A stretch of DNA of 8,388 bases from a virus. Its lineage: Duplodnaviria; Heunggongvirae; Uroviricota; Caudoviricetes. The first letter of the stretch is position 1. Each line of letters starts with the position of its first letter. The notes beneath the pieces are model-generated. The model ran no database searches. It saw only the letters and a list, made by a program, of their open reading frames with translations, and had not been told where the DNA came from. The stretch is from the IMG/VR virus record IMGVR_UViG_2690315922_000011, one strand, 5' to 3'. Shown one piece after another: positions 301 to 8,388 of the stretch. The translations under genes were made by a program, and so were the position numbers.

Positions 301-2364
301 TTATTCCTCTGGGTAAGCTGAGCTAATCAGAGTGTCTTCTTGCATTCGATTAATGTGAGATGTAGTCCTTTCATCAATAATCTTTCCATCAAGAATTGTC
401 TGGGTAGTGACATTAATTGTCTGAGGCTTAATACTTACTGATGGTTTAATAACCTTTAAATCTTGAGTAAATGTTTCCACTCGACCTTTCAGATTATTTA
501 ATGACTCAGGTGAAAGCTGTGGAACATCTTTTGATTTACCCTGAACCATAGCCCATAAAACAGCGGCTAAAGAGTTCATGTCACCAGTTAATGCCTGGTC
601 TGTGGGTTCCACCTTTGCCCGTACAATTTTATCCATTGGATTATCGGACTTACTCATCTGACGTTCATAGAACGGTTTGACAATGGCATTAATCACATCA
701 GTTGCCATACCGACAATCATTACTTTGGTAATTGCATCAGCTACAGATAATTTCCCTTTACCACCTTCAACACTACCAGAGCGTGAATTAATTCTCCCTG
801 CTGCTGTATTCGCTACATTTCCAAGCGTGGAAATAGCCCTGATTAAGTTCCAGATACCACCTACAGCACCAATACCAGACCTCACAGCAACAATTCCAGC
901 AAGTCCCTTTAATGCACTTAACAGGCCATTTGCAATACCATCAGCCACAGTTTTTTGAGTGTCATTTAATTCTCTGTAAGCAAGGGTCACTCTGTCAAAG
1001 AATCCCTGCACTCGGTAGCTAATCGTGGTTAAATCATCAATACCGTTTGACATGCTTTTCATCAAGTCGCCAAAATGTTCACCAAGATTTTTAGATTGAC
1101 CACCCAGTGAATTAAGTAAATTAGTCAGTGACCTTGTAAAGTCTGTTAATCCTTCCTGTGAACCATCGAACATTAAGGCCAGATTATTATTCCATTCATT
1201 AGAAAGGCGACCTAACTGTGTCTGAGTAGAGTTAATAATCTTTTCCCATCCTCCCGCTTTATCAATCATCTTTCCCATTTCAGCGGATACTTTAGGGAGA
1301 ACATCTTTAGAAAGAACCTTACCGTCTTTCATAGCCTTGTCTAATTCTTCCGTAGTCATCCCAAGACTTCTGGCAAATAACTGAAAAGCACCTGCCATTC
1401 TGTCACCTAACTGACCGCGTAATTCTTCAGCCTGAATCTTTCCTTTAGATGCCATCTGCTCGAAAGCTTTTAAAATCCCGTTAATTTCATCGGTGCTTAG
1501 CCCCATTAATCTGGATGTGCCAATCACGTTGGAAAATAAGGATTCTTTCTGGCTTGTATCCATGTTACCAGCGCCAGCGGAAAACTTAGCGTAGCTTGAT
1601 AATGTTTCAATCTGGTCTACACCTGTTTTGCCAGCAAGACTCTTAACGAATTCTGTAGCTCGTTTAGCACCTTCATCACCTAAAACAAATTGTGCCGCTC
1701 GTTGTGATGCTTCTTTTTTCAAACCAATCTCCATCACCTTTCTGTAGGCTTCAAGGGCTGTTTGAAAACTATAAATGGCTGTACCTGCTTTAATTGCACT
1801 CGTGGCTAATACATCCAGACTATTTGAAGCATTTTCACTGTGATTACTTTTGCTGGTGGATGTGTGACCTCTGGACTTAATAAGAGCTTCACGTAGATTT
1901 TGATTTAACTTTGCCAGTTCACGATTAAAAGCTTCGTTTCCAAGTGTCTTAGCTTTGGAGCTCAGATTGTAATACTGCGCCTTGAACATTTTGGCTAACA
2001 GAGGGTCAATGCTATTTAGCTTGCTCATGTTCGAGCTATGCGCGGCTGTGATAGCTCTGTTGCCGCTAATTCGTGGTTGTCTAAGTGGCTTTAAAGTATC
2101 CTCAATTTCCGTTTTAATCTTAAACGCTTTAGTATTTTTAAGACGCTGCTCAATCTTGGAAATGGTTTTATCGACATTCTTTTCCATTACCTTGAGAGAG
2201 TCATTTAAAGGCGCAGGATTAACTTTAAAAGCTTTATTCAGTCGTTTCTCAATTCTTGATGCGATTTGCATCGTTTGTTTCTCGACTTTTTCCAGACCTT
2301 TTAAAACCTTCTGAGAGTTAAAACTTAACTCAATCAGAAAATCATCGACTTTAAATTGTGCCAT
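301..2364 (-). CDS. Phage tail tape-measure protein (tail length determinant)
   Basis: 687-aa ORF. K/E-rich coiled-coil-like N-terminus; segment LSTDEINGILKAFEQMASKGKIQAEELRGQLGDRMAGAFQLFARSLGMTTEEL resembles the conserved tape-measure core as I recall it; Gly/Ala-rich hydrophobic segment GLLSALKGLAGIVAVRSGIGAVGGIWNLIRAISTLG typical of these proteins. SD AGAGGTGA about 11 nt upstream of ATG 2364-2362. A downstream tail gene follows. Confidence 0.8.
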   Translation of the reverse strand: MAQFKVDDFLIELSFNSQKVLKGLEKVEKQTMQIASRIEKRLNKAFKVNPAPLNDSLKVMEKNVDKTISKIEQRLKNTKAFKIKTEIEDTLKPLRQPRISGNRAITAAHSSNMSKLNSIDPLLAKMFKAQYYNLSSKAKTLGNEAFNRELAKLNQNLREALIKSRGHTSTSKSNHSENASNSLDVLATSAIKAGTAIYSFQTALEAYRKVMEIGLKKEASQRAAQFVLGDEGAKRATEFVKSLAGKTGVDQIETLSSYAKFSAGAGNMDTSQKESLFSNVIGTSRLMGLSTDEINGILKAFEQMASKGKIQAEELRGQLGDRMAGAFQLFARSLGMTTEELDKAMKDGKVLSKDVLPKVSAEMGKMIDKAGGWEKIINSTQTQLGRLSNEWNNNLALMFDGSQEGLTDFTRSLTNLLNSLGGQSKNLGEHFGDLMKSMSNGIDDLTTISYRVQGFFDRVTLAYRELNDTQKTVADGIANGLLSALKGLAGIVAVRSGIGAVGGIWNLIRAISTLGNVANTAAGRINSRSGSVEGGKGKLSVADAITKVMIVGMATDVINAIVKPFYERQMSKSDNPMDKIVRAKVEPTDQALTGDMNSLAAVLWAMVQGKSKDVPQLSPESLNNLKGRVETFTQDLKVIKPSVSIKPQTINVTTQTILDGKIIDERTTSHINRMQEDTLISSAYPEE

Positions 2365-4146: not shown

Positions 4147-4214
4147 TTTAAAAATCCTCTATGAAATAGTTTCTATCGAATAAAACACATCTTAAATCTG
4201 CCAAAATAGCCATT

Positions 4215-4283
4215 CTGAGGCCAGTAACCATGCGGGTTACAGAGGGAGTGAGACACCTTAGCAATAGGGTGGCTTACCTTTGA
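4215..4283. other. Two adjacent inverted repeats in the 158-bp intergenic region (candidate RNA structure or protein-binding site)
   Basis: GTAACC-atgcg-GGTTAC (4215-4231), then GAGTGAGAC (4237-4245) and GTCTCACTC (4275-4283), exact reverse complements around a 29-nt loop. The GTCTCA/TGAGAC core recurs in the repeats upstream of the recombinase. Confidence 0.4.
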
Positions 4284-4304
4284 GTCTCACTCGTTATCAC
4301 AGAC

Positions 4305-5284: not shown

Positions 5285-6059
5285 CGTAATCATCTTCGAA
5301 ATCCGGTAACTCATCATCGTCACCATCACATAAATCATCATCTTCATCCGGGTCCGGTAATGGTTCATCATCGTCATCGATGGTGGGGCACGGTGTATTT
5401 TTCTGGTCACTAATAACAATCACATCAGAGTTTTTATTTCTTTGTTTATTAGCCTCTTCAGAGCTTGCTTCAAGGTCATCTAAAACAGTTTGTTTAATAG
5501 TCTCTTTAATTCCAAGAGAATCACATTCATGTGAATCACAGAGCGAAGCTCCATTCTTAACAGTCCCTTCTTCAAAGTCATCTTTCCTATTGTTATTAAT
5601 AAGTTCTTTTTGTTCTTTCTTGTTATTATACGTGTCAAGAATTTTGACTGACTGAGTAAAGAATTTTGACTCAGTGGGTAAAGAATTTTGACTCAGTGGG
5701 TCATCTTTTTTGACTGCTTTAGATTCCAGCTTTGCTTTTCGTGCTTCTTTGGCTGTAGGTTCAGTTAAAACCTCAGGAACTTCATCAAGCGAAAAGACTT
5801 CAATAATACACTGGTTGCTCGCAACGTTAGTTTTCCTAATTAAACCATACGCCTCAAGTCTTTTCATACATGCAATAACTGATGTTCTTGTGATTCCTGC
5901 ATACTGACCAAGATGAGCATAAGACGGTGTATAGTATTGACCTTTATCGTGATAGTATTTTTGCTCATTCAGCATGACGGTGTAGATAATACGGTCAGCC
6001 GCTTTAATTTTATTACTCATCTGATAAATACGGTCATCAAACATGTGAAACTTTTCCAT
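5277..6059 (-). CDS. Replication initiator, lambda O-like N-terminal winged-helix domain, with poly-acidic C-terminal tail
   Basis: 260-aa ORF with SD GAGGT 9 nt before the ATG. N-terminal region DRIIYTVMLNEQKYYHDKGQYYTPSYAHLGQYAGITRTSVIACMKRLEAYGLIRK matches the phage O N-terminal pattern (..LaelTGlsrrtv..al..Le..GlI) as I recall it. Tandem iteron-like repeats and an AT-rich tract lie inside the gene, as the lambda origin does within O. C-terminus DDDDEPLPDPDEDDDLCDGDDDELPDFEDDYGW. Confidence 0.65.
   Translation of the reverse strand: MEKFHMFDDRIYQMSNKIKAADRIIYTVMLNEQKYYHDKGQYYTPSYAHLGQYAGITRTSVIACMKRLEAYGLIRKTNVASNQCIIEVFSLDEVPEVLTEPTAKEARKAKLESKAVKKDDPLSQNSLPTESKFFTQSVKILDTYNNKKEQKELINNNRKDDFEEGTVKNGASLCDSHECDSLGIKETIKQTVLDDLEASSEEANKQRNKNSDVIVISDQKNTPCPTIDDDDEPLPDPDEDDDLCDGDDDELPDFEDDYGW
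5581..5721. repeat. Putative origin of replication: four tandem 22-bp iteron-like repeats plus adjacent AT-rich tract, inside the O-like gene
   Basis: Units at 5634-5655, 5656-5677, 5678-5699 and 5700-5721; the central two are identical (GTAAAGAATTTTGACTCAGTGG), the outer two diverged, all sharing TTTTGACT. Flanked at 5581-5633 by a roughly 75% A+T tract. Confidence 0.6.
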
Positions 6060-6291
6060 TCATAAATTACCTCATACGTGAAAAGGCCAACCGGATAAAA
6101 CCGATTAGCCTGATGTGATTTAAATATCTGGGGGATTGATGGACTGATAAAGAAGCCCATGCCTGAAACAGTACGATGATTAAAACGCTGAGGTATACCC
6201 TGAATGAGAGGTTTTATATACGTCAATCATCTGACACCTCCCCAAGTGTTACCACTCCAAGACATGAACTTTTTTATCAGCCCATATAAAA

Positions 6292-6320
6292 ACTATACCA
6301 CACGTGATTATTAGTTGCAA
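6292..6320 (-). promoter_or_regulatory. Candidate sigma70 promoter directed toward the replication gene
   Basis: Minus strand reads TTGCAA (6315-6320), 17-bp spacer, then TGgTATAGT (complement of 6292-6300), an extended -10-like element. A strong SD-like GGGGAGGTG follows about 50 nt downstream (complement of about 6232-6241). Confidence 0.4.
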
Positions 6321-6393
6321 CAACTATTTCACTAAATTATTACCGTTTGATTACTTATTGTTCACCTCATAAATACCGGGATTTATTGGAAAA

Positions 6394-6540
6394 TCAGCCT
6401 AATCTTTCAGCAATTCTGTACGAGGTACTCAGGGGCATTCTGAGAGCCTCCGCAATGTACTTGATGGTTTTGCCCTCTGTTTCTGTTATCATCGGGCTTG
6501 CCTTATCAGGGCTTTGAAATGCCTCTGTAACTCCCCCCTC
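6394..6540 (-). pseudogene. Remnant of a serine-recombinase C-terminal HTH domain (truncated; N-terminal catalytic domain absent)
   Basis: Minus-strand frame reads ...FQSPDKASPMITETEGKTIKYIAEALRMPLSTSYRIAERLG-stop, with an in-frame stop upstream at 6541-6543. Compare the intact recombinase C-terminus GRPSKASPEAVQTLISQGKTRLQIQEELGISRATFYRLAK: shared KASP linker and STxYR-type HTH. Only 32 codons from the first ATG and no upstream start; it abuts hairpin repeat copy 1. Confidence 0.35.
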
Positions 6541-6541
6541 T

Positions 6542-6600
6542 TAACAGGAGAGAGGGTGATACATGAGACAAGAACCCTCCCTTCTTAAAAACCTTCTTGA
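6542..6600. repeat. Hairpin-containing direct repeat, copy 1 (~60 bp)
   Basis: Core GGAGAGAGGGTGATACATGAGACAAGAACCCTCC (6547-6580) matches copy 2 at 33 of 34 positions. Internal inverted repeat GAGGGT/ACCCTC (longer with mismatches) around a 16-nt loop that contains ATGAGAC. Flank similarity (ACC..CTTG..TCT) continues to about 6600. Confidence 0.6.
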
Positions 6601-6937
6601 CAATCTTTACAGACCTTGTTCAAGGTAATCACAATAGTTTTTCTTCCCTCGGCTTCCCGTGTTCCTCGGTTCGTTTATTGAGACCCTGAAAGACCCTGTA
6701 ACTCCTTCTTAACGGGAGAGAAAGAACATAGTGACCCCCAAGCGAAGCGCCCCTTTTAGTATGCTTTTTAATCACCATTTTAGCATTTAGTGCTTTTTAT
6801 TAAATTTAGCACTTTTTGCTAAAGACAAAACACTTGACAAATTGCTAAGATTGGACACATACCCCATCTTAACAGACTTTTAAGAGACTTTTAAACGGCC
6901 TGTTTAACCGGGTCACTATCCGGTTCTTCGTTCCCCC

Positions 6938-6951
6938 TCTATCTAGATAGA
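6938..6951. promoter_or_regulatory. 14-bp perfect palindrome TCTATCTAGATAGA (candidate operator or protein-binding site)
   Basis: The sequence equals its own reverse complement. Flanked by repeated CTGTTAAGA motifs (6953-6961, 6988-6996) and an AACCGG-n8-CCGGTT inverted repeat (6906-6925). Confidence 0.4.
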
Positions 6952-7081
6952 TACTGTTAAGATTTTTTAAGAAATCTCTTACGTCAACTGTTAAGATAAA
7001 CTTACCTTCCGTTAAAACAGTTCTGTCTAGCAATTTCATAATTGTCTGTCAAGTATCTTTGAAGGTACTATCAAGGGTCAC

Positions 7082-7145
7082 TAAGCGGGAGAGAGGGTGA
7101 TACATGAGATAAGAACCCTCCTGTTAAAAGACCACTTGGAAAGTC
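7082..7145. repeat. Hairpin-containing direct repeat, copy 2 (~60 bp)
   Basis: Core GGAGAGAGGGTGATACATGAGATAAGAACCCTCC (7088-7121); same orientation as copy 1, 541 bp downstream. Followed by the 13-bp palindrome AAGTCTGAGACTT (7140-7152). Confidence 0.6.
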
Positions 7146-7534
7146 TGAGACTTTAGTAAAATCTGTGAATACGGCTTCTCAGACGCTCTGTAACGCATTC
7201 TAGGCGATTTTACCCCCTTATTTTAAGGTGGGTGGTACATCCCTATAGACTACCCCTAAAAATGGGGTTAAAACTCGCTACAGAGCTTTCTATGAGATTA
7301 GCTTCTAATCGAATCAACTATGAGGCTTGGCAGAGTTGCATAAATTTTATACAGCACTTATTCAGCTTCTAAATTTTTTATAAAAATGACTAGCCCTTCT
7401 TCAGGTTCTCTTCCTCATTAACTCCCAAAAATATCTGTGAGTGTCTATACCCGTTTGGTAGCCCAGATTCACGATATAGCCCCTCCCTTGCAAAATCTGG
7501 AAATATCTGTCATATCCTTATGACTGTAGAATAA

Positions 7535-8083
7535 TCACTTCGCCAATCGGTAAAAGGTCGCTCTAGAGATGCCTAGCTCTTCCTGAATCTGCAACCTCGT
7601 CTTACCTTGTGAAATGAGCGTCTGAACAGCCTCTGGAGAAGCTTTTGAAGGTCGTCCCATGTGAACCCCTTCAGCTTTAGCACGCTCAATGCCAGCCTTT
7701 CTACGCTCACTGATAAGGTCTTTTTCAAGGTCAGCTAAGCCAGCCATCATAGTAAGCATTGCTTTACCGATTGCCGTAGACAAGTCGAACCCTTCACGCA
7801 ACGAAACAACCCTCACACCTTTAGCCTGTAGTGTCTCCACGTTAGAGAGTACATCAACAGTATTACGCCCTAAACGGTCAATCGCTGCCACAGCTAACGT
7901 ATCGTCACACCTTACATAGTTCATCATGTCTATAAAGCCATCTCTGTTGGTAGCCTTTGTAGTTCCTGAGACAGCTTCATCAATAAACCATTTATCGACC
8001 TTGTGAACCTTCTCTATCTGTAATTTCTGGTTGTCTATAGACTGCTCTCGTGTTGATACCCTGCAATAACCAATCACCGCCAT
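7535..8083 (-). CDS. Site-specific serine recombinase (small resolvase/DNA-invertase family)
   Basis: 182-aa ORF. N-terminal IGYCRVSTREQ with the catalytic-serine context; DRLGRN motif; C-terminal HTH GKTRLQIQEELGISRATFYRLAK. Size and layout match resolvase/Hin-Gin-type recombinases. SD-like GGGGGG 4 nt before the ATG. Confidence 0.9.
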   Translation of the reverse strand: MAVIGYCRVSTREQSIDNQKLQIEKVHKVDKWFIDEAVSGTTKATNRDGFIDMMNYVRCDDTLAVAAIDRLGRNTVDVLSNVETLQAKGVRVVSLREGFDLSTAIGKAMLTMMAGLADLEKDLISERRKAGIERAKAEGVHMGRPSKASPEAVQTLISQGKTRLQIQEELGISRATFYRLAK

Positions 8084-8097
8084 ACATCCCCCCTAAG

Positions 8098-8237
8098 TAG
8101 TCTCAAAAGTAAGTCTCATAAGTTTAGCTGTCTCATAATTCAAAAACAAGCTTATGAGACACTTAGAAGATGCATTCTACCGTTGCGTTGAAGGCGTCTC
8201 ATAAGGACTTCCTTTTGAGACTAACTTAGAAGGTGCA
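8098..8237. promoter_or_regulatory. Repeat array upstream of the recombinase gene: putative res-like recombination/operator site with three sub-sites
   Basis: GTCTCA(A/T)AAG motifs at 8100-8109, 8113-8122, 8130-8139, 8196-8205 and, inverted, at 8151-8160 and 8214-8222. Sub-site B is TGTCTCATAA-n13-TTATGAGACA (8129-8161); sub-site C is GTCTCATAAG-n8-TTTTGAGAC (8196-8222). An additional direct repeat ACTTAGAAGRTGCA lies at 8161-8174 and 8223-8236. Layout resembles Tn3-family res sites, which sit immediately upstream of the resolvase gene. Confidence 0.45.
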
Positions 8238-8388
8238 ATGTGCAAAACAGTTATGTTGCTTATTATTACCTCTTGCAACTGAAAAACCATGTGACCAGAT
8301 AACTGCATAGCGTTATATAGTCCTGTAAATAGCGGTTTATAAGAGTCGAGAGAGAGATGACTAACAACTGCATAGTTTTACTGATAAG

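What the first reader, a model, noticed from the sequence alone, without database searches (positions are those of the whole stretch)
6230..7534. 1.3-kb stretch with no long ORF that is saturated with short repeats and palindromes
Besides the hairpin repeats it holds CTTAACAG and its complement CTGTTAAG at least six times in both orientations (about 6538, 6706, 6866, 6953, 6988, 7121), a 14-bp perfect palindrome (6938-6951), AACCGG-n8-CCGGTT (6906-6925), tandem AGACCCTGWA (6682-6701) and AGACTTTTA (6872-6891) pairs, CATTTAGTGCTTTTT/AATTTAGCACTTTTT repeats (6777-6813), a 13-bp palindrome AAGTCTGAGACTT (7140-7152) and AAATATCTGT twice (7431-7440, 7501-7510). This density is atypical for plain spacer DNA and suggests an array of protein-binding sites (immunity/operator region, partition site or recombination enhancer), one or more non-coding RNAs, or a decayed gene.
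Basis: seen in the sequence. Interest (0 to 1): 0.55.

Follow-up and report, generated by a model that had tools for sequence, protein, structure and literature searches.

The report
Satellite copy of helper-phage chromosome-end region
The repeat-filled gene-free stretch is the control region of a small mobile element found in about a tenth of E. coli genomes, and its best-conserved repeats copy the chromosome-end region of Felix-O1-type phages, so it probably lets the element be recognised and hijack those phages.

Summary
All listed repeats are present within 0-7 nt of the stated coordinates, and the boxes are enriched and conserved.

The window is part of a ~11.5-13 kb integrative, satellite-like element. 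It carries a large serine integrase, a Dit-like protein, a tape measure protein, a replication module and a small serine recombinase. About 10% of complete E. coli genomes hold it, and PGAP annotates almost nothing in this stretch.

The stretch is a mosaic:
- **7348-7520** is homologous to the left boundary of the ~0.6 kb direct terminal repeat (DTR) of Felixounavirus phages (TTGGTAGCCC at 7455-7464). All 9 relatives aligned keep it.
- **6870-6979** is homologous to the interior of that DTR. The helper's 1.6 kb end region is full of the same CTTAACAG-type boxes.
- **7141-7300** is a promoter-like module. Its 28-mer also occurs in T5-like terminal repeats.
- **Three copies of a strand-specific hairpin cassette** lie at about 6537-6589, 6690-6755 and 7078-7129.
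- **Both ends of a deleted Dam-methylase/HTH gene** remain (6394-6470, 6740-6755).

Best reading: a cis-acting mimic of the helper's chromosome end (packaging or end recognition), plus regulatory cassettes and gene debris. It is not one structured RNA, not the replication origin, and not the recombinase's own site cluster. Function is inferred, not shown.

The parts
7348..7520 (+). A block. Homolog of the Felixounavirus region that spans the left boundary of the direct terminal repeat. The boundary equivalent is 7454|7455, with TTGGTAGCCC at 7455-7464. AAATATC boxes lie at 7429-7438 and 7501-7510, and an AT palindrome at 7375-7385.
   Evidence: Local alignment to helper L234 8939-9103 scores z = 14.4 against shuffles. 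blastn gives 70% over 114 nt, E = 1e-5. All 9 satellites aligned keep it, including the variants with a short or methylase-filled stretch. The DTR boundary comes from the annotated DTR of UAB_69 and from PMC4837284.
6870..6979 (+). F block. Homolog of the interior of the helper DTR. Holds CTTAACAG (6868-6875), the AGACTTTTA tandem, AACCGG-n8-CCGGTT (6906-6925, conserved loop GGTCACTAT), the 14-bp palindrome (6938-6951) and CTGTTAAG (6954-6961).
   Evidence: Aligns to helper L234 9297-9406 with z = 7.5. The L003 version is 78% identical over 76 nt, E = 1e-8. Its boxes are the most conserved positions of the stretch.
6988..6995 (-). Conserved TCTTAACAG box, the third copy in the F region.
6579..6617 (+). 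Pieces homologous to the helper's left flank outside the DTR: CCCTTCTTAAAAACCTTCTT..AATCTT and ATCTTTACAGACCTT.
   Evidence: z = 4.9 against L234 8552-8577. 15 of 15 identical to L234 8851-8865.
7141..7300 (-). M1 promoter-like module. It reads TTAAAA-18-TAGAAT (-10 at 7197-7202), then GTTACAG (7188-7194), then an 8-bp 5' stem (GUCUGAGA / UCUCAGAC). The 28-mer lies at 7183-7210.
   Evidence: Promoter scan. Four relatives hold copies about 95% identical at the same place, and eight hold inverted copies about 70% identical roughly 3 kb away. The 28-mer is 26/28 identical to a sequence in T5-like phage terminal repeats in 171 phage records. In other phage contigs the same 15-mer sits just upstream of a Shine-Dalgarno sequence and ATG.
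7078..7129 (-). Hairpin cassette copy Ua: a purine arm GGAGGGU pairs with a pyrimidine arm ACCCUCU.
   Evidence: Covariance model R1, 70.5 bits. Hairpin seen.
6537..6589 (-). Hairpin cassette copy Uc. An alternative pairing joins CUCUCC to GGGGAG, with UGUUAAGAG in the loop, followed by GTTACAG at 6525-6531.
   Evidence: Model R1, 74.9 bits. The minimum-energy fold uses the alternative hairpin.
6690..6755 (-). Degenerate cassette copy Ub, fused to the ribosome-binding/start region of the lost methylase gene (invariant AGGGGCGCTTCGCTT at 6740-6754; GTTACAG at 6696-6702).
   Evidence: Ub-type copies score 24.5 bits in relatives. In L022 the same sequence is followed by the start of the methylase ORF.
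6394..6492 (-). 32-codon ORF. Its part from about 6470 down to 6394 is the remnant of the C-terminal HTH of a Dam methylase gene.
   Evidence: KTIKYIAEALRMPLSTSYRIAERLG matches KPIKYIADVLRMPLSTSYRIAQRLS* at the end of the intact genes in L022 and L024.
6821..6851 (+). Extended -10 promoter-like site on the opposite strand: AAGACA-18-TGcTAAGAT, with the hexamer at 6846-6851.
   Evidence: The equivalent site in L002 was called by the scan (AAGACA-18-TATGAT with TG). TTTGTCTTT, TTTGTCAA and the TA-GAT hexamer are conserved. Function is inferred.
6292..6320 (-). Likely promoter of the replication operon: TTGCAA-17-TGgTATAGT.
   Evidence: Promoter scan. The surrounding 124 nt are 91% identical in L027.

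Best explanation
The stretch is the non-coding control region of a satellite-like integrative element related to Felix-O1-type phages.

**Core content (shown).** Its core is DNA copied from, or sharing ancestry with, the helper phage's chromosome-end region.
- Window 7348-7520 reproduces the junction at the left edge of the helper's ~0.6 kb direct terminal repeat (DTR).
- Window 6870-6979 reproduces part of the DTR interior.
- The CTTAACAG / CCTTCTTAAC / AAATATC boxes are the same boxes that saturate the helper's 1.6 kb end region.

**Most likely role (inferred).** These are cis-acting recognition sites for helper proteins that recognise, cut or package phage chromosome ends. With them the satellite's DNA would be treated as phage DNA, and possibly competes with it.

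**The rest of the stretch.**
- Expression signals: the M1 promoter-like module, a promoter-like site on the opposite strand, and the replication-operon promoter.
- Three copies of a hairpin cassette found only on the gene-sense strand. Its pyrimidine arm can pair with either an upstream or a downstream purine tract, so it is probably an RNA-level leader element.
- The two ends of a deleted Dam-methylase cargo gene.

**Shown versus inferred.** Homology, conservation, strand bias and the pseudogene remnants are shown. Protein binding, cutting, packaging and transcription are inferred.
For: **The element**
- It lies in the chromosome of 537 of 5426 complete E. coli genomes, never on plasmids.
- It is flanked by split yecE, by tonB/yciI, or lies next to ymdF.
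- It has a large serine recombinase at one end and no annotated capsid or terminase genes.

**Link to the helper**
- The tape measure protein is 30% identical over its full length to Felixounavirus tape measure proteins.
- A ~180-nt stretch of its gene is 76-80% identical at the DNA level, among 278 matching phage records, nearly all Felix-O1-type.

**Helper chromosome ends**
- The DTR of UAB_Phi87 is 608 bp, determined experimentally (PMC4837284).
- The DTR is annotated in UAB_69.
- The starts or ends of five other genome records support the right boundary.

**Homology to the helper end region**
- A block: z = 14.4.
- F block: z = 7.5; the L003 version is 78% identical over 76 nt, E = 1e-8.
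- Left-flank piece: z = 4.9.
- The junction alignment shows AAATATC...ATGTATAyCTGC|TWRGTASCC...CCTTTGCAA shared by two helpers and 9 satellites. These include L027 and L024, which lack most of the central modules.
- The helper end region carries 8 exact CTTAACAG boxes within 700 bp, plus many variants.

**Boxes within the window**
- They are enriched.
- They are the most conserved positions of the stretch.

**Hairpin cassette**
- 44 model hits fall in 19 satellite loci, all on the gene-sense strand. None occurs in helper or T5-like DNA.
- Covariation score is 0.249 against 0.178 in shuffles (0 of 500 reach it).
- 21 cells changed on both sides against 8.9 expected.
- G.U pairs are frequent and valid only on the sense strand.

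**Pseudogene remnants**.
Against: - No experiment here shows packaging, cutting or protein binding.
- Only the left DTR junction has a detectable homolog. No copy of the right junction was found anywhere in the elements.
- The homologous pieces are not collinear with the helper. The F block lies to the left of the A block in the window, but to its right in the phage.
- The central modules, including the F block and most CTTAACAG boxes, are optional. L027 lacks them and L024 largely does, so they cannot be essential for transfer.
- The role of the DTR-region boxes in Felixounavirus itself is unknown. They could serve transcription or replication rather than packaging.
- The left boundary of the helper DTR rests on one record's annotation.
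- A ~12 kb genome in an ~87 kb capsid would need capsid resizing or multimer packaging, and no evidence for either was found.
- Hairpin covariation was counted on a model-fitted alignment, and the percentage of paired cells is no better than in slid registers.
Confidence: 0.55

Rival explanations
1. Operator/promoter switch. The boxes are operators for a transcription regulator, either the element's own RHH or HTH protein or a helper-encoded one. The stretch would then be a helper-sensing regulatory region that turns on the replication operon. Its similarity to the helper end region would reflect shared promoters and operators, not packaging signals.
For: - Promoter-like sites lie on both strands.
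- A CTTAACAG box sits about 10 nt downstream of the predicted start of the opposite-strand promoter.
- TGTTAA boxes flank the strong replication-gene promoter in L002-type and L006-type relatives.
- In other phages the M1 15-mer sits in promoter position upstream of a Shine-Dalgarno sequence and ATG.
- It also follows terminators in T5-like terminal repeats.
- The element encodes an Omega-like RHH protein and an HTH protein, both as weak Pfam hits.
Against: - The window's own replication-operon promoter carries no such boxes.
- The boxes are dispersed rather than arranged in operator-like arrays.
- The best-conserved block (A) spans the helper's chromosome end, not a recognised promoter.
- L027 keeps the RHH gene but lacks the boxes.
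- Promoter calls in AT-rich DNA are near chance level: 7 found against 5.4 expected.
Confidence: 0.2
2. Mostly inert debris. The stretch is a cargo-exchange hotspot that accumulates junction sequences, duplications, gene remnants and scraps picked up by recombination with helper phages. It has no function beyond the replication-operon promoter.
For: - Length varies from 0.8 to 1.9 kb among relatives, and module content is mosaic.
- Methylase gene remnants are present.
- A 14-nt tandem repeat varies from 2 to 4 copies.
- Different modules occupy the same slot in different relatives.
- The central modules are dispensable (L027).
Against: - Specific 8-15 nt boxes are at least 80% conserved across 19 relatives that otherwise diverge to about 70%.
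- All 9 relatives aligned retain the A block.
- All 44 hairpin cassettes keep one strand.
- Other genera hold related sequences.
Confidence: 0.12
3. Non-coding RNA locus. The main products are one or more small or antisense RNAs, or a long leader RNA whose hairpins act in cis (attenuation, stability) or in trans on helper transcripts.
For: - The hairpin cassettes are strand-specific and show compensatory changes and G.U pairs.
- A second small hairpin follows GTTACAG and covaries: CAGGG/CCCTG, GAGGT/ACCTC, GAGGT/GTCTC.
- The pyrimidine tract has alternative pairings.
- In L002 a promoter on the opposite strand is followed about 80 nt later by a predicted terminator.
Against: - No Rfam family matches.
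- Sliding consensus folding finds almost no conserved energy.
- Single-sequence z-scores range from -1.7 to +1.2.
- No intrinsic terminator is predicted in the window's stretch.
- The opposite-strand terminator is not conserved.
- The most conserved blocks, A and F, show sequence conservation rather than structural conservation.
Confidence: 0.08
4. Replication origin or recombination substrate. The boxes are iterons of an origin, or crossover or accessory sites for the adjacent small serine recombinase.
For: - The boxes repeat in both orientations next to a replication gene and a recombinase gene.
- The recombinase's best family hits are DNA invertases.
- Relatives carry inverted M1 copies about 3 kb apart.
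Against: - The Rep protein is lambda-O-like, and its three 22-bp iterons lie inside its own gene at about 5640-5700.
- DnaA boxes are not enriched.
- The recombinase's six GTCTCAWAAG half-sites form a res-like cluster at 8100-8221, outside the stretch.
- No orientation polymorphism was seen. In 19 satellite loci every hairpin cassette lies on the gene-sense strand, and the GTTACAG boxes of the stretch keep that orientation in the 10 relatives checked.
- L022 has the central modules but no recombinase, and L027 has the recombinase but no central modules.
Confidence: 0.05

Closest known systems
Packaging-site mimicry by phage satellites (P4 carrying the cos site of P2; cos-type PICIs carrying the helper's cos). 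Recalled from established knowledge, not tested here.
   Same: A small integrative element without annotated capsid or terminase genes carries a short non-coding sequence homologous to the helper's chromosome-end site. Every family member examined keeps it.
   Different: - The helper here is a virulent Felixounavirus with ~0.6 kb direct terminal repeats, not cohesive ends.
- Only the left repeat junction is copied.
- The copied pieces are rearranged.
- The element also carries its own tape measure and Dit-like genes.
- Packaging has not been shown.
Terminal-repeat region of Felixounavirus phages (Felix O1, UAB_Phi87, UAB_69, tootiki)
   Same: It shares the junction sequence, the AAATATC boxes on both sides of the boundary, the CTTAACAG / CCTTCTTAAC box families and the GGTCACTAT...CGTTCCC segment.
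   Different: - The phage has about 25 boxes, mostly in one orientation, within a contiguous repeat.
- The satellite has 6-10 boxes in both orientations, interleaved with promoter modules, hairpin cassettes and gene remnants.
- The function of the phage region itself has not been studied in the papers found.
Untranslated injection-stop (iss) region in the terminal repeat of T5-like phages (Davison, bioRxiv 10.1101/866236)
   Same: [quoted passage not shown]
- Both have an inverted partner copy a few kb away.
- A 28-mer is shared, 26/28 identical.
   Different: - Paired DnaA boxes define the T5 region, and they are absent here.
- Similarity is limited to the promoter-like 28-55 nt.
- The two T5 copies are direct, not inverted.
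PeSL cassettes of T4-type phages (promoter-early-stem-loop regulatory cassettes that flank swappable genes). Recalled from established knowledge, not tested here.
   Same: Short directional cassettes holding expression signals and a stem-loop sit at the boundaries where gene content differs between relatives. Examples are the methylase, the small membrane protein, and HNH versus HTH genes.
   Different: There is no sequence relation, and promoter activity of the cassettes is unproven. Here the cassettes cluster in a stretch that has lost its genes.

Membership tests
Satellite cis-acting site that mimics the helper's packaging or end site | Sequence homologous to the helper's chromosome-end or packaging site | tested here: met
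   The A block aligns across the left DTR boundary of Felixounavirus (z = 14.4). The F block aligns to the DTR interior (z = 7.5).
Satellite cis-acting site that mimics the helper's packaging or end site | Carried by a mobile element that lacks its own capsid and terminase genes | tested here: met
   The annotated elements hold an integrase, a baseplate protein, a tape measure protein, hypothetical proteins, HTH, methylase and recombinase genes only. Most hypothetical proteins are uncharacterised, so this holds as far as annotation and Pfam/PHROGs scans go.
Satellite cis-acting site that mimics the helper's packaging or end site | Conserved in all members of the satellite family | tested here: met
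   The A block is present in all 9 satellites aligned, including those without the central modules.
Satellite cis-acting site that mimics the helper's packaging or end site | Helper-dependent cutting or packaging at the site | not testable with these tools
   This needs infection, particle DNA and end mapping.
Structured non-coding RNA family (Rfam) | Match to a curated covariance model | tested here: not met
   No plausible hit at E of 1 or less in the window, or 5 or less in L002.
Structured non-coding RNA (new) | Conserved secondary structure with covariation | tested here: inconclusive
   - The hairpin cassette has a covariation score of 0.249 against 0.178 in shuffles (0 of 500 reach it), and 5 pairs changed on both sides.
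- The alignment was fitted to the model, and paired cells reach 76% against 83% in the +1 register.
- No larger conserved fold was found.
res site or invertase crossover sites of the adjacent serine recombinase | Clustered inverted half-sites matching the recombinase's binding motif | tested here: not met
   The six GTCTCAWAAG half-sites cluster at 8100-8221. Within the stretch there are only three two-mismatch matches, which is chance level.
Iteron-type replication origin | Iterons for the adjacent initiator, with or without DnaA boxes | tested here: not met
   The iterons lie inside the O-like rep gene. DnaA boxes are not enriched.
Pseudogene (Dam methylase with C-terminal HTH) | Residual similarity to an intact gene at the same position in relatives | tested here: met
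   This holds for 6394-6470 and 6740-6755 only. The rest of the stretch shows no coding signal.
T5-type injection-stop region | Paired DnaA boxes within large inverted repeats in a terminal repeat | tested here: not met
   Only a 28-mer is shared. There are no DnaA box pairs.

The most novel reading that the evidence does not exclude
The element belongs to a previously undescribed family of satellites of virulent Felix-O1-type phages, present in about 10% of E. coli genomes. This stretch would be its functional mimic of the helper's terminal-repeat junction. Helper end-processing machinery would cut or initiate packaging at 7454|7455. The extra arrays of helper-type boxes would act as decoys that divert that machinery from the phage, so the non-coding stretch would serve both as the hijacking device and as an anti-phage interference device.
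Probability: 0.3. Interest if true: 0.8.

Novelty: new variant of a known kind. Interest (0 to 1): 0.62.

Why it matters
If the reading holds, a common and essentially unannotated E. coli island is a parasite of Felix-O1-type phages. Its 'empty' 1.3 kb would then be the key to how it is recognised.

- **Phage therapy and typing.** Felix-O1-type phages are widely used in therapy cocktails and in typing. A resident satellite that copies their chromosome end could lower their yield or be spread by them.
- **Biology of the phage group.** The shared junction and boxes give a concrete handle on how this group defines its terminal repeats, which is not understood.
- **Experiments.** The region offers precise, testable coordinates: the junction at 7454|7455 and the box arrays.

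Tried and rejected
- **DNA similarity searches.** blastn of the stretch against the phage and plasmid collections at default stringency found nothing. The helper link appeared only through the tape measure protein search and a motif scan of a helper genome.
- **Collection scans.** The scan of metagenome contigs with a 16-mer returned mostly chance hits and about 10 true relatives. The scan of viral contigs with the M1 15-mer returned a number of hits compatible with chance by my own rough estimate. Only a subset shared flanks.
- **Large structured RNA.** Rejected on the evidence.
- **M1 as a structured RNA.** Rejected because wobble pairs favour opposite strands in different helices and covariation is weak.
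- **Small proteins.** The 56-aa ORF at 6869-7039 is an 8-codon ORF in relatives. Mini-ORFs in the hairpin loops are not kept in frame.
- **Inversion by the adjacent recombinase.** No orientation variants were seen among the relatives examined.
- **CTTAACAG as a recombinase half-site or a DnaA box.** Rejected.
- **Right DTR junction.** No homolog was found in the elements.
- **Hairpin cassette in helper or T5-like genomes.** Absent.
- **The 278-aa protein.** It has no phage homolog by tblastn.
- **Literature.** Searches found no description of this element family.
Full report
**1. Observation**

The stretch 6230-7534 has no ORF above 56 aa.

- CTTAACAG with up to one mismatch occurs 17 times in the window against 8.3 expected. 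One of 200 shuffles reaches 17. Ten of the 17 lie in 6502-7128.
- Several short boxes concentrate in 6500-7140, with binomial P between 3e-5 and 4e-3.
- GTTACAG occurs 4 times against 0.88 expected. Three copies lie on the minus strand inside the stretch.

**2. What the window is**

All genes run on the minus strand. In window order they are:

- a tape measure protein;
- several unknown proteins;
- an HTH protein;
- an Omega-like RHH protein;
- a lambda-O-like replication initiator, with three 22-bp iterons inside its own gene;
- the gene-free stretch;
- a 182-aa serine recombinase.

The same DNA is a 9-kb Logan contig.

The stretch matches the chromosomes of 537 of 5426 complete E. coli genomes, and the whole window matches 545; neither matches any plasmid. 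E. albertii also holds it. Annotated copies show a ~11.5-13 kb island with these features:

- It is inserted in yecE, between tonB and yciI, or next to ymdF.
- It has a large serine recombinase at one end and the small recombinase at the other.
- It has no annotated capsid or terminase genes.
- PGAP annotates almost nothing in the stretch. Its length is 0.8 to 1.9 kb in four copies, and in two further copies it holds a Dam methylase gene (L022, L024).

I found no paper that describes this island.

**3. Not coding, apart from a gene remnant**

Alignments with relatives show frequent indels that are not multiples of three. The 56-aa ORF at 6869-7039 is an 8-codon ORF in eight relatives.

The 32-codon ORF at 6394-6492 is the remnant of the C-terminal HTH of the Dam methylase that is intact in L022 and L024. 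The invariant AGGGGCGCTTCGCTT at 6740-6754 is that gene's ribosome-binding/start region. So the 'decayed gene' idea is right for about 100 nt.

**4. Not one structured RNA**

- Rfam finds nothing plausible, and there are no tRNAs.
- Sliding consensus folds of 19 relatives carry almost no conserved energy on either strand.
- Single-sequence folding z-scores are unremarkable.

**5. A strand-specific hairpin cassette**

One repeated unit does behave like an RNA element. A purine arm (GGAGGGU and variants) pairs with a pyrimidine arm (ACCCUCU and variants) across three unrelated loop types. A covariance model built from five copies finds 44 copies in 19 satellite loci.

- All 44 lie on the gene-sense strand.
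- None occurs in relatives from other genera, in the helper phage, or in a T5-like phage.

| Measure | Observed | Control |
|---|---|---|
| Covariation score | 0.249 | 0.178 in shuffles (0 of 500 reach it) |
| Cells changed on both sides | 21 | 8.9 expected |
| Cells paired | 76% | 83% in the +1 register |

G.U pairs are common and valid only on the sense strand. However, the alignment was fitted to the model and the paired fraction is no better than in slid registers, so support is moderate.

The pyrimidine arm can also pair with a downstream purine tract, which places the TTAAG box in the loop. That second hairpin covaries between relatives: CUUCCCU/AGGGAAG in L003 against CUCUC/GAGAG in L090. 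A small hairpin right after GTTACAG covaries too.

**6. Promoter-like modules**

*Module M1 (7141-7300, minus strand).*
- It reads TTAAAA-18-TAGAAT-GCG-TTACAG, followed by an 8-bp stem.
- Four relatives hold a ~95% identical copy at the same place. Eight hold a ~70% identical copy in inverted orientation about 3 kb away.
- The window has a degenerate counterpart at about 4200-4304.
- The 28-mer at 7183-7210 is 26/28 identical to a sequence in the terminal repeats of T5-like phages, found in 171 phage records. There it follows terminators and precedes the injection-stop repeats.
- In unrelated phage contigs the same 15-mer lies just upstream of a Shine-Dalgarno sequence and ATG.

*Other sites.*
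- An extended -10 site on the plus strand (hexamer 6846-6851) is conserved.
- TTGCAA-17-TGgTATAGT at 6292-6320 probably drives the replication operon.

All of these are predictions in AT-rich DNA, where the scan finds 7 sites against 5.4 expected.

**7. The decisive link to a helper phage**

*Shared tail gene.* The tape measure protein is 30% identical over its full length to those of Felix-O1-type phages. About 180 nt of its gene are 76-80% identical at the DNA level, among 278 matching phage records, nearly all Felix-O1-type.

*The helper's end region.* Phage tootiki has a 1.6-kb gene-free region between convergent gene blocks. It is saturated with the same boxes as the stretch:
- 8 exact CTTAACAG boxes within 700 bp;
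- many CTTAACAA, CTAACAAG and CCTTCTTAAC variants;
- TAGTGACC, TTAAGARGG and GTTACAG.

That region holds the phage's physical ends.
- UAB_Phi87 has a 608-bp direct terminal repeat, determined experimentally (PMC4837284).
- The repeat is annotated in UAB_69.
- Five other genome records start or end at its right boundary.

*Homology of the stretch to that region.*

| Window segment | Helper segment (L234) | Support |
|---|---|---|
| 7348-7520 | 8939-9103, across the left repeat boundary | z = 14.4; blastn 70% over 114 nt |
| 6870-6979 | 9297-9406, repeat interior | z = 7.5; L003 version 78% over 76 nt, E = 1e-8 |
| 6579-6617 | left flank of the repeat | z = 4.9, plus a 15/15 match |

The sequence TTGGTAGCCC at 7455-7464 is the first ten bases of the phage repeat. 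The junction block is present in all nine satellites aligned, including those that lack most of the central modules.

**8. Interpretation**

*Shown.* The stretch is a conserved, non-coding mosaic. Its best-conserved parts are homologous to the helper's chromosome-end region. The remainder comprises promoter-like cassettes, a strand-specific hairpin cassette and methylase remnants.

*Inferred.* The junction block and the boxes are cis-acting recognition sites for helper end-processing or packaging proteins. Satellites such as P4 carry the helper's cos site in the same way.

*Caveats.*
- Only the left junction is copied.
- The pieces are rearranged relative to the phage.
- The central box arrays are optional (L027).
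- The function of the boxes in the phage itself is unknown.
- Nothing shows packaging.

*Rivals.* A transcriptional switch that uses the boxes as operators is the main rival. Inert debris, an ncRNA locus, and an origin or recombinase substrate are less likely, for the reasons given under each.

**9. Verdict**

It is a new variant of a known kind: a satellite's cis-acting mimic of its helper. It sits in an apparently undescribed and common E. coli element, and it offers precise coordinates for experiments.

Noticed in passing
window 8098-8223: Six GTCTCAWAAG half-sites form dyads just upstream of the small serine recombinase gene, for example TGTCTCATAA-n13-TTATGAGACA at 8129-8161. The layout resembles a res site and is probably the recombinase's own site.
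   Followed up: partly
window 5640-5700: Three tandem ~22-bp repeats (GAATTTTGACTCAGTGGGTAAA) lie inside the lambda-O-like replication gene. They look like origin iterons within the initiator gene, as in lambda.
   Followed up: partly
window 4200-4304: This intergenic segment carries GTTACAG on the plus strand, followed by a 9-bp-stem hairpin (GAGTGAGAC...GTCTCACTC). It looks like a degenerate inverted counterpart of the M1 module. Eight relatives hold a ~70% identical inverted M1 copy at this position.
   Followed up: partly
window 7183-7210; L232 5446 and 8613: The promoter-like 28-mer is nearly identical to a sequence present twice, in direct orientation, in the terminal repeat of T5-like phages. 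Each copy follows coding sequence or a terminator and precedes DnaA-box-like sequences of the injection-stop region. Why a Felix-O1-related satellite shares it is unexplained.
   Followed up: partly
window 1286-1467: About 180 nt inside the tape measure gene are 76-80% identical to Felixounavirus tape measure genes, although the proteins are only about 30% identical overall. This suggests a constrained or recently exchanged segment.
   Followed up: no
L002 7939-8196 (minus strand), with promoter 8327-8356 and terminator 7901-7924: Relatives carry an unannotated ORF of up to 85 codons for a small membrane protein (...WAGGGIGLIAGLLLRY...) in the equivalent of the stretch. It is conserved in L003, has its own strong promoter and terminator, and is absent from the window.
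   Followed up: partly
L002 about 6800-6900 (also L003, L005, L025, L026): Where the window has M1, most relatives have a bidirectional terminator hairpin followed by a C-rich, G-poor tract of variable length made of ACC-containing short repeats. This could be a Rho-loading site.
   Followed up: no
L002 about 7550-7580; L005 about 11530-11590; L147: A 14-nt unit GGTTAAGAAGGTC is tandemly repeated 2, 4 and 3 times just upstream of the third hairpin cassette. This is a variable-number repeat between otherwise similar elements.
   Followed up: no
L004, L006, L007, L009, L010, downstream of the recombinase gene: Related elements in Rahnella, Klebsiella, Erwinia and Leclercia share a ~0.9 kb gene-free stretch that is 87% identical on average. 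It holds an inverted pair of M1-like cores and a terminator 93% identical to one in the Felixounavirus end region.
   Followed up: partly
L234 10087-16100 (phage tootiki, early region): Small early genes of the helper are separated by repeated ~85-nt cassettes with a conserved hairpin (CAACGGGGAGGGAATGACCTTCCCC, or GGGGCTTA...TAAGCCCC) followed by CTAAACTGGAGATTC. These are regulatory cassettes between swappable genes, reminiscent of T4-type PeSLs.
   Followed up: no
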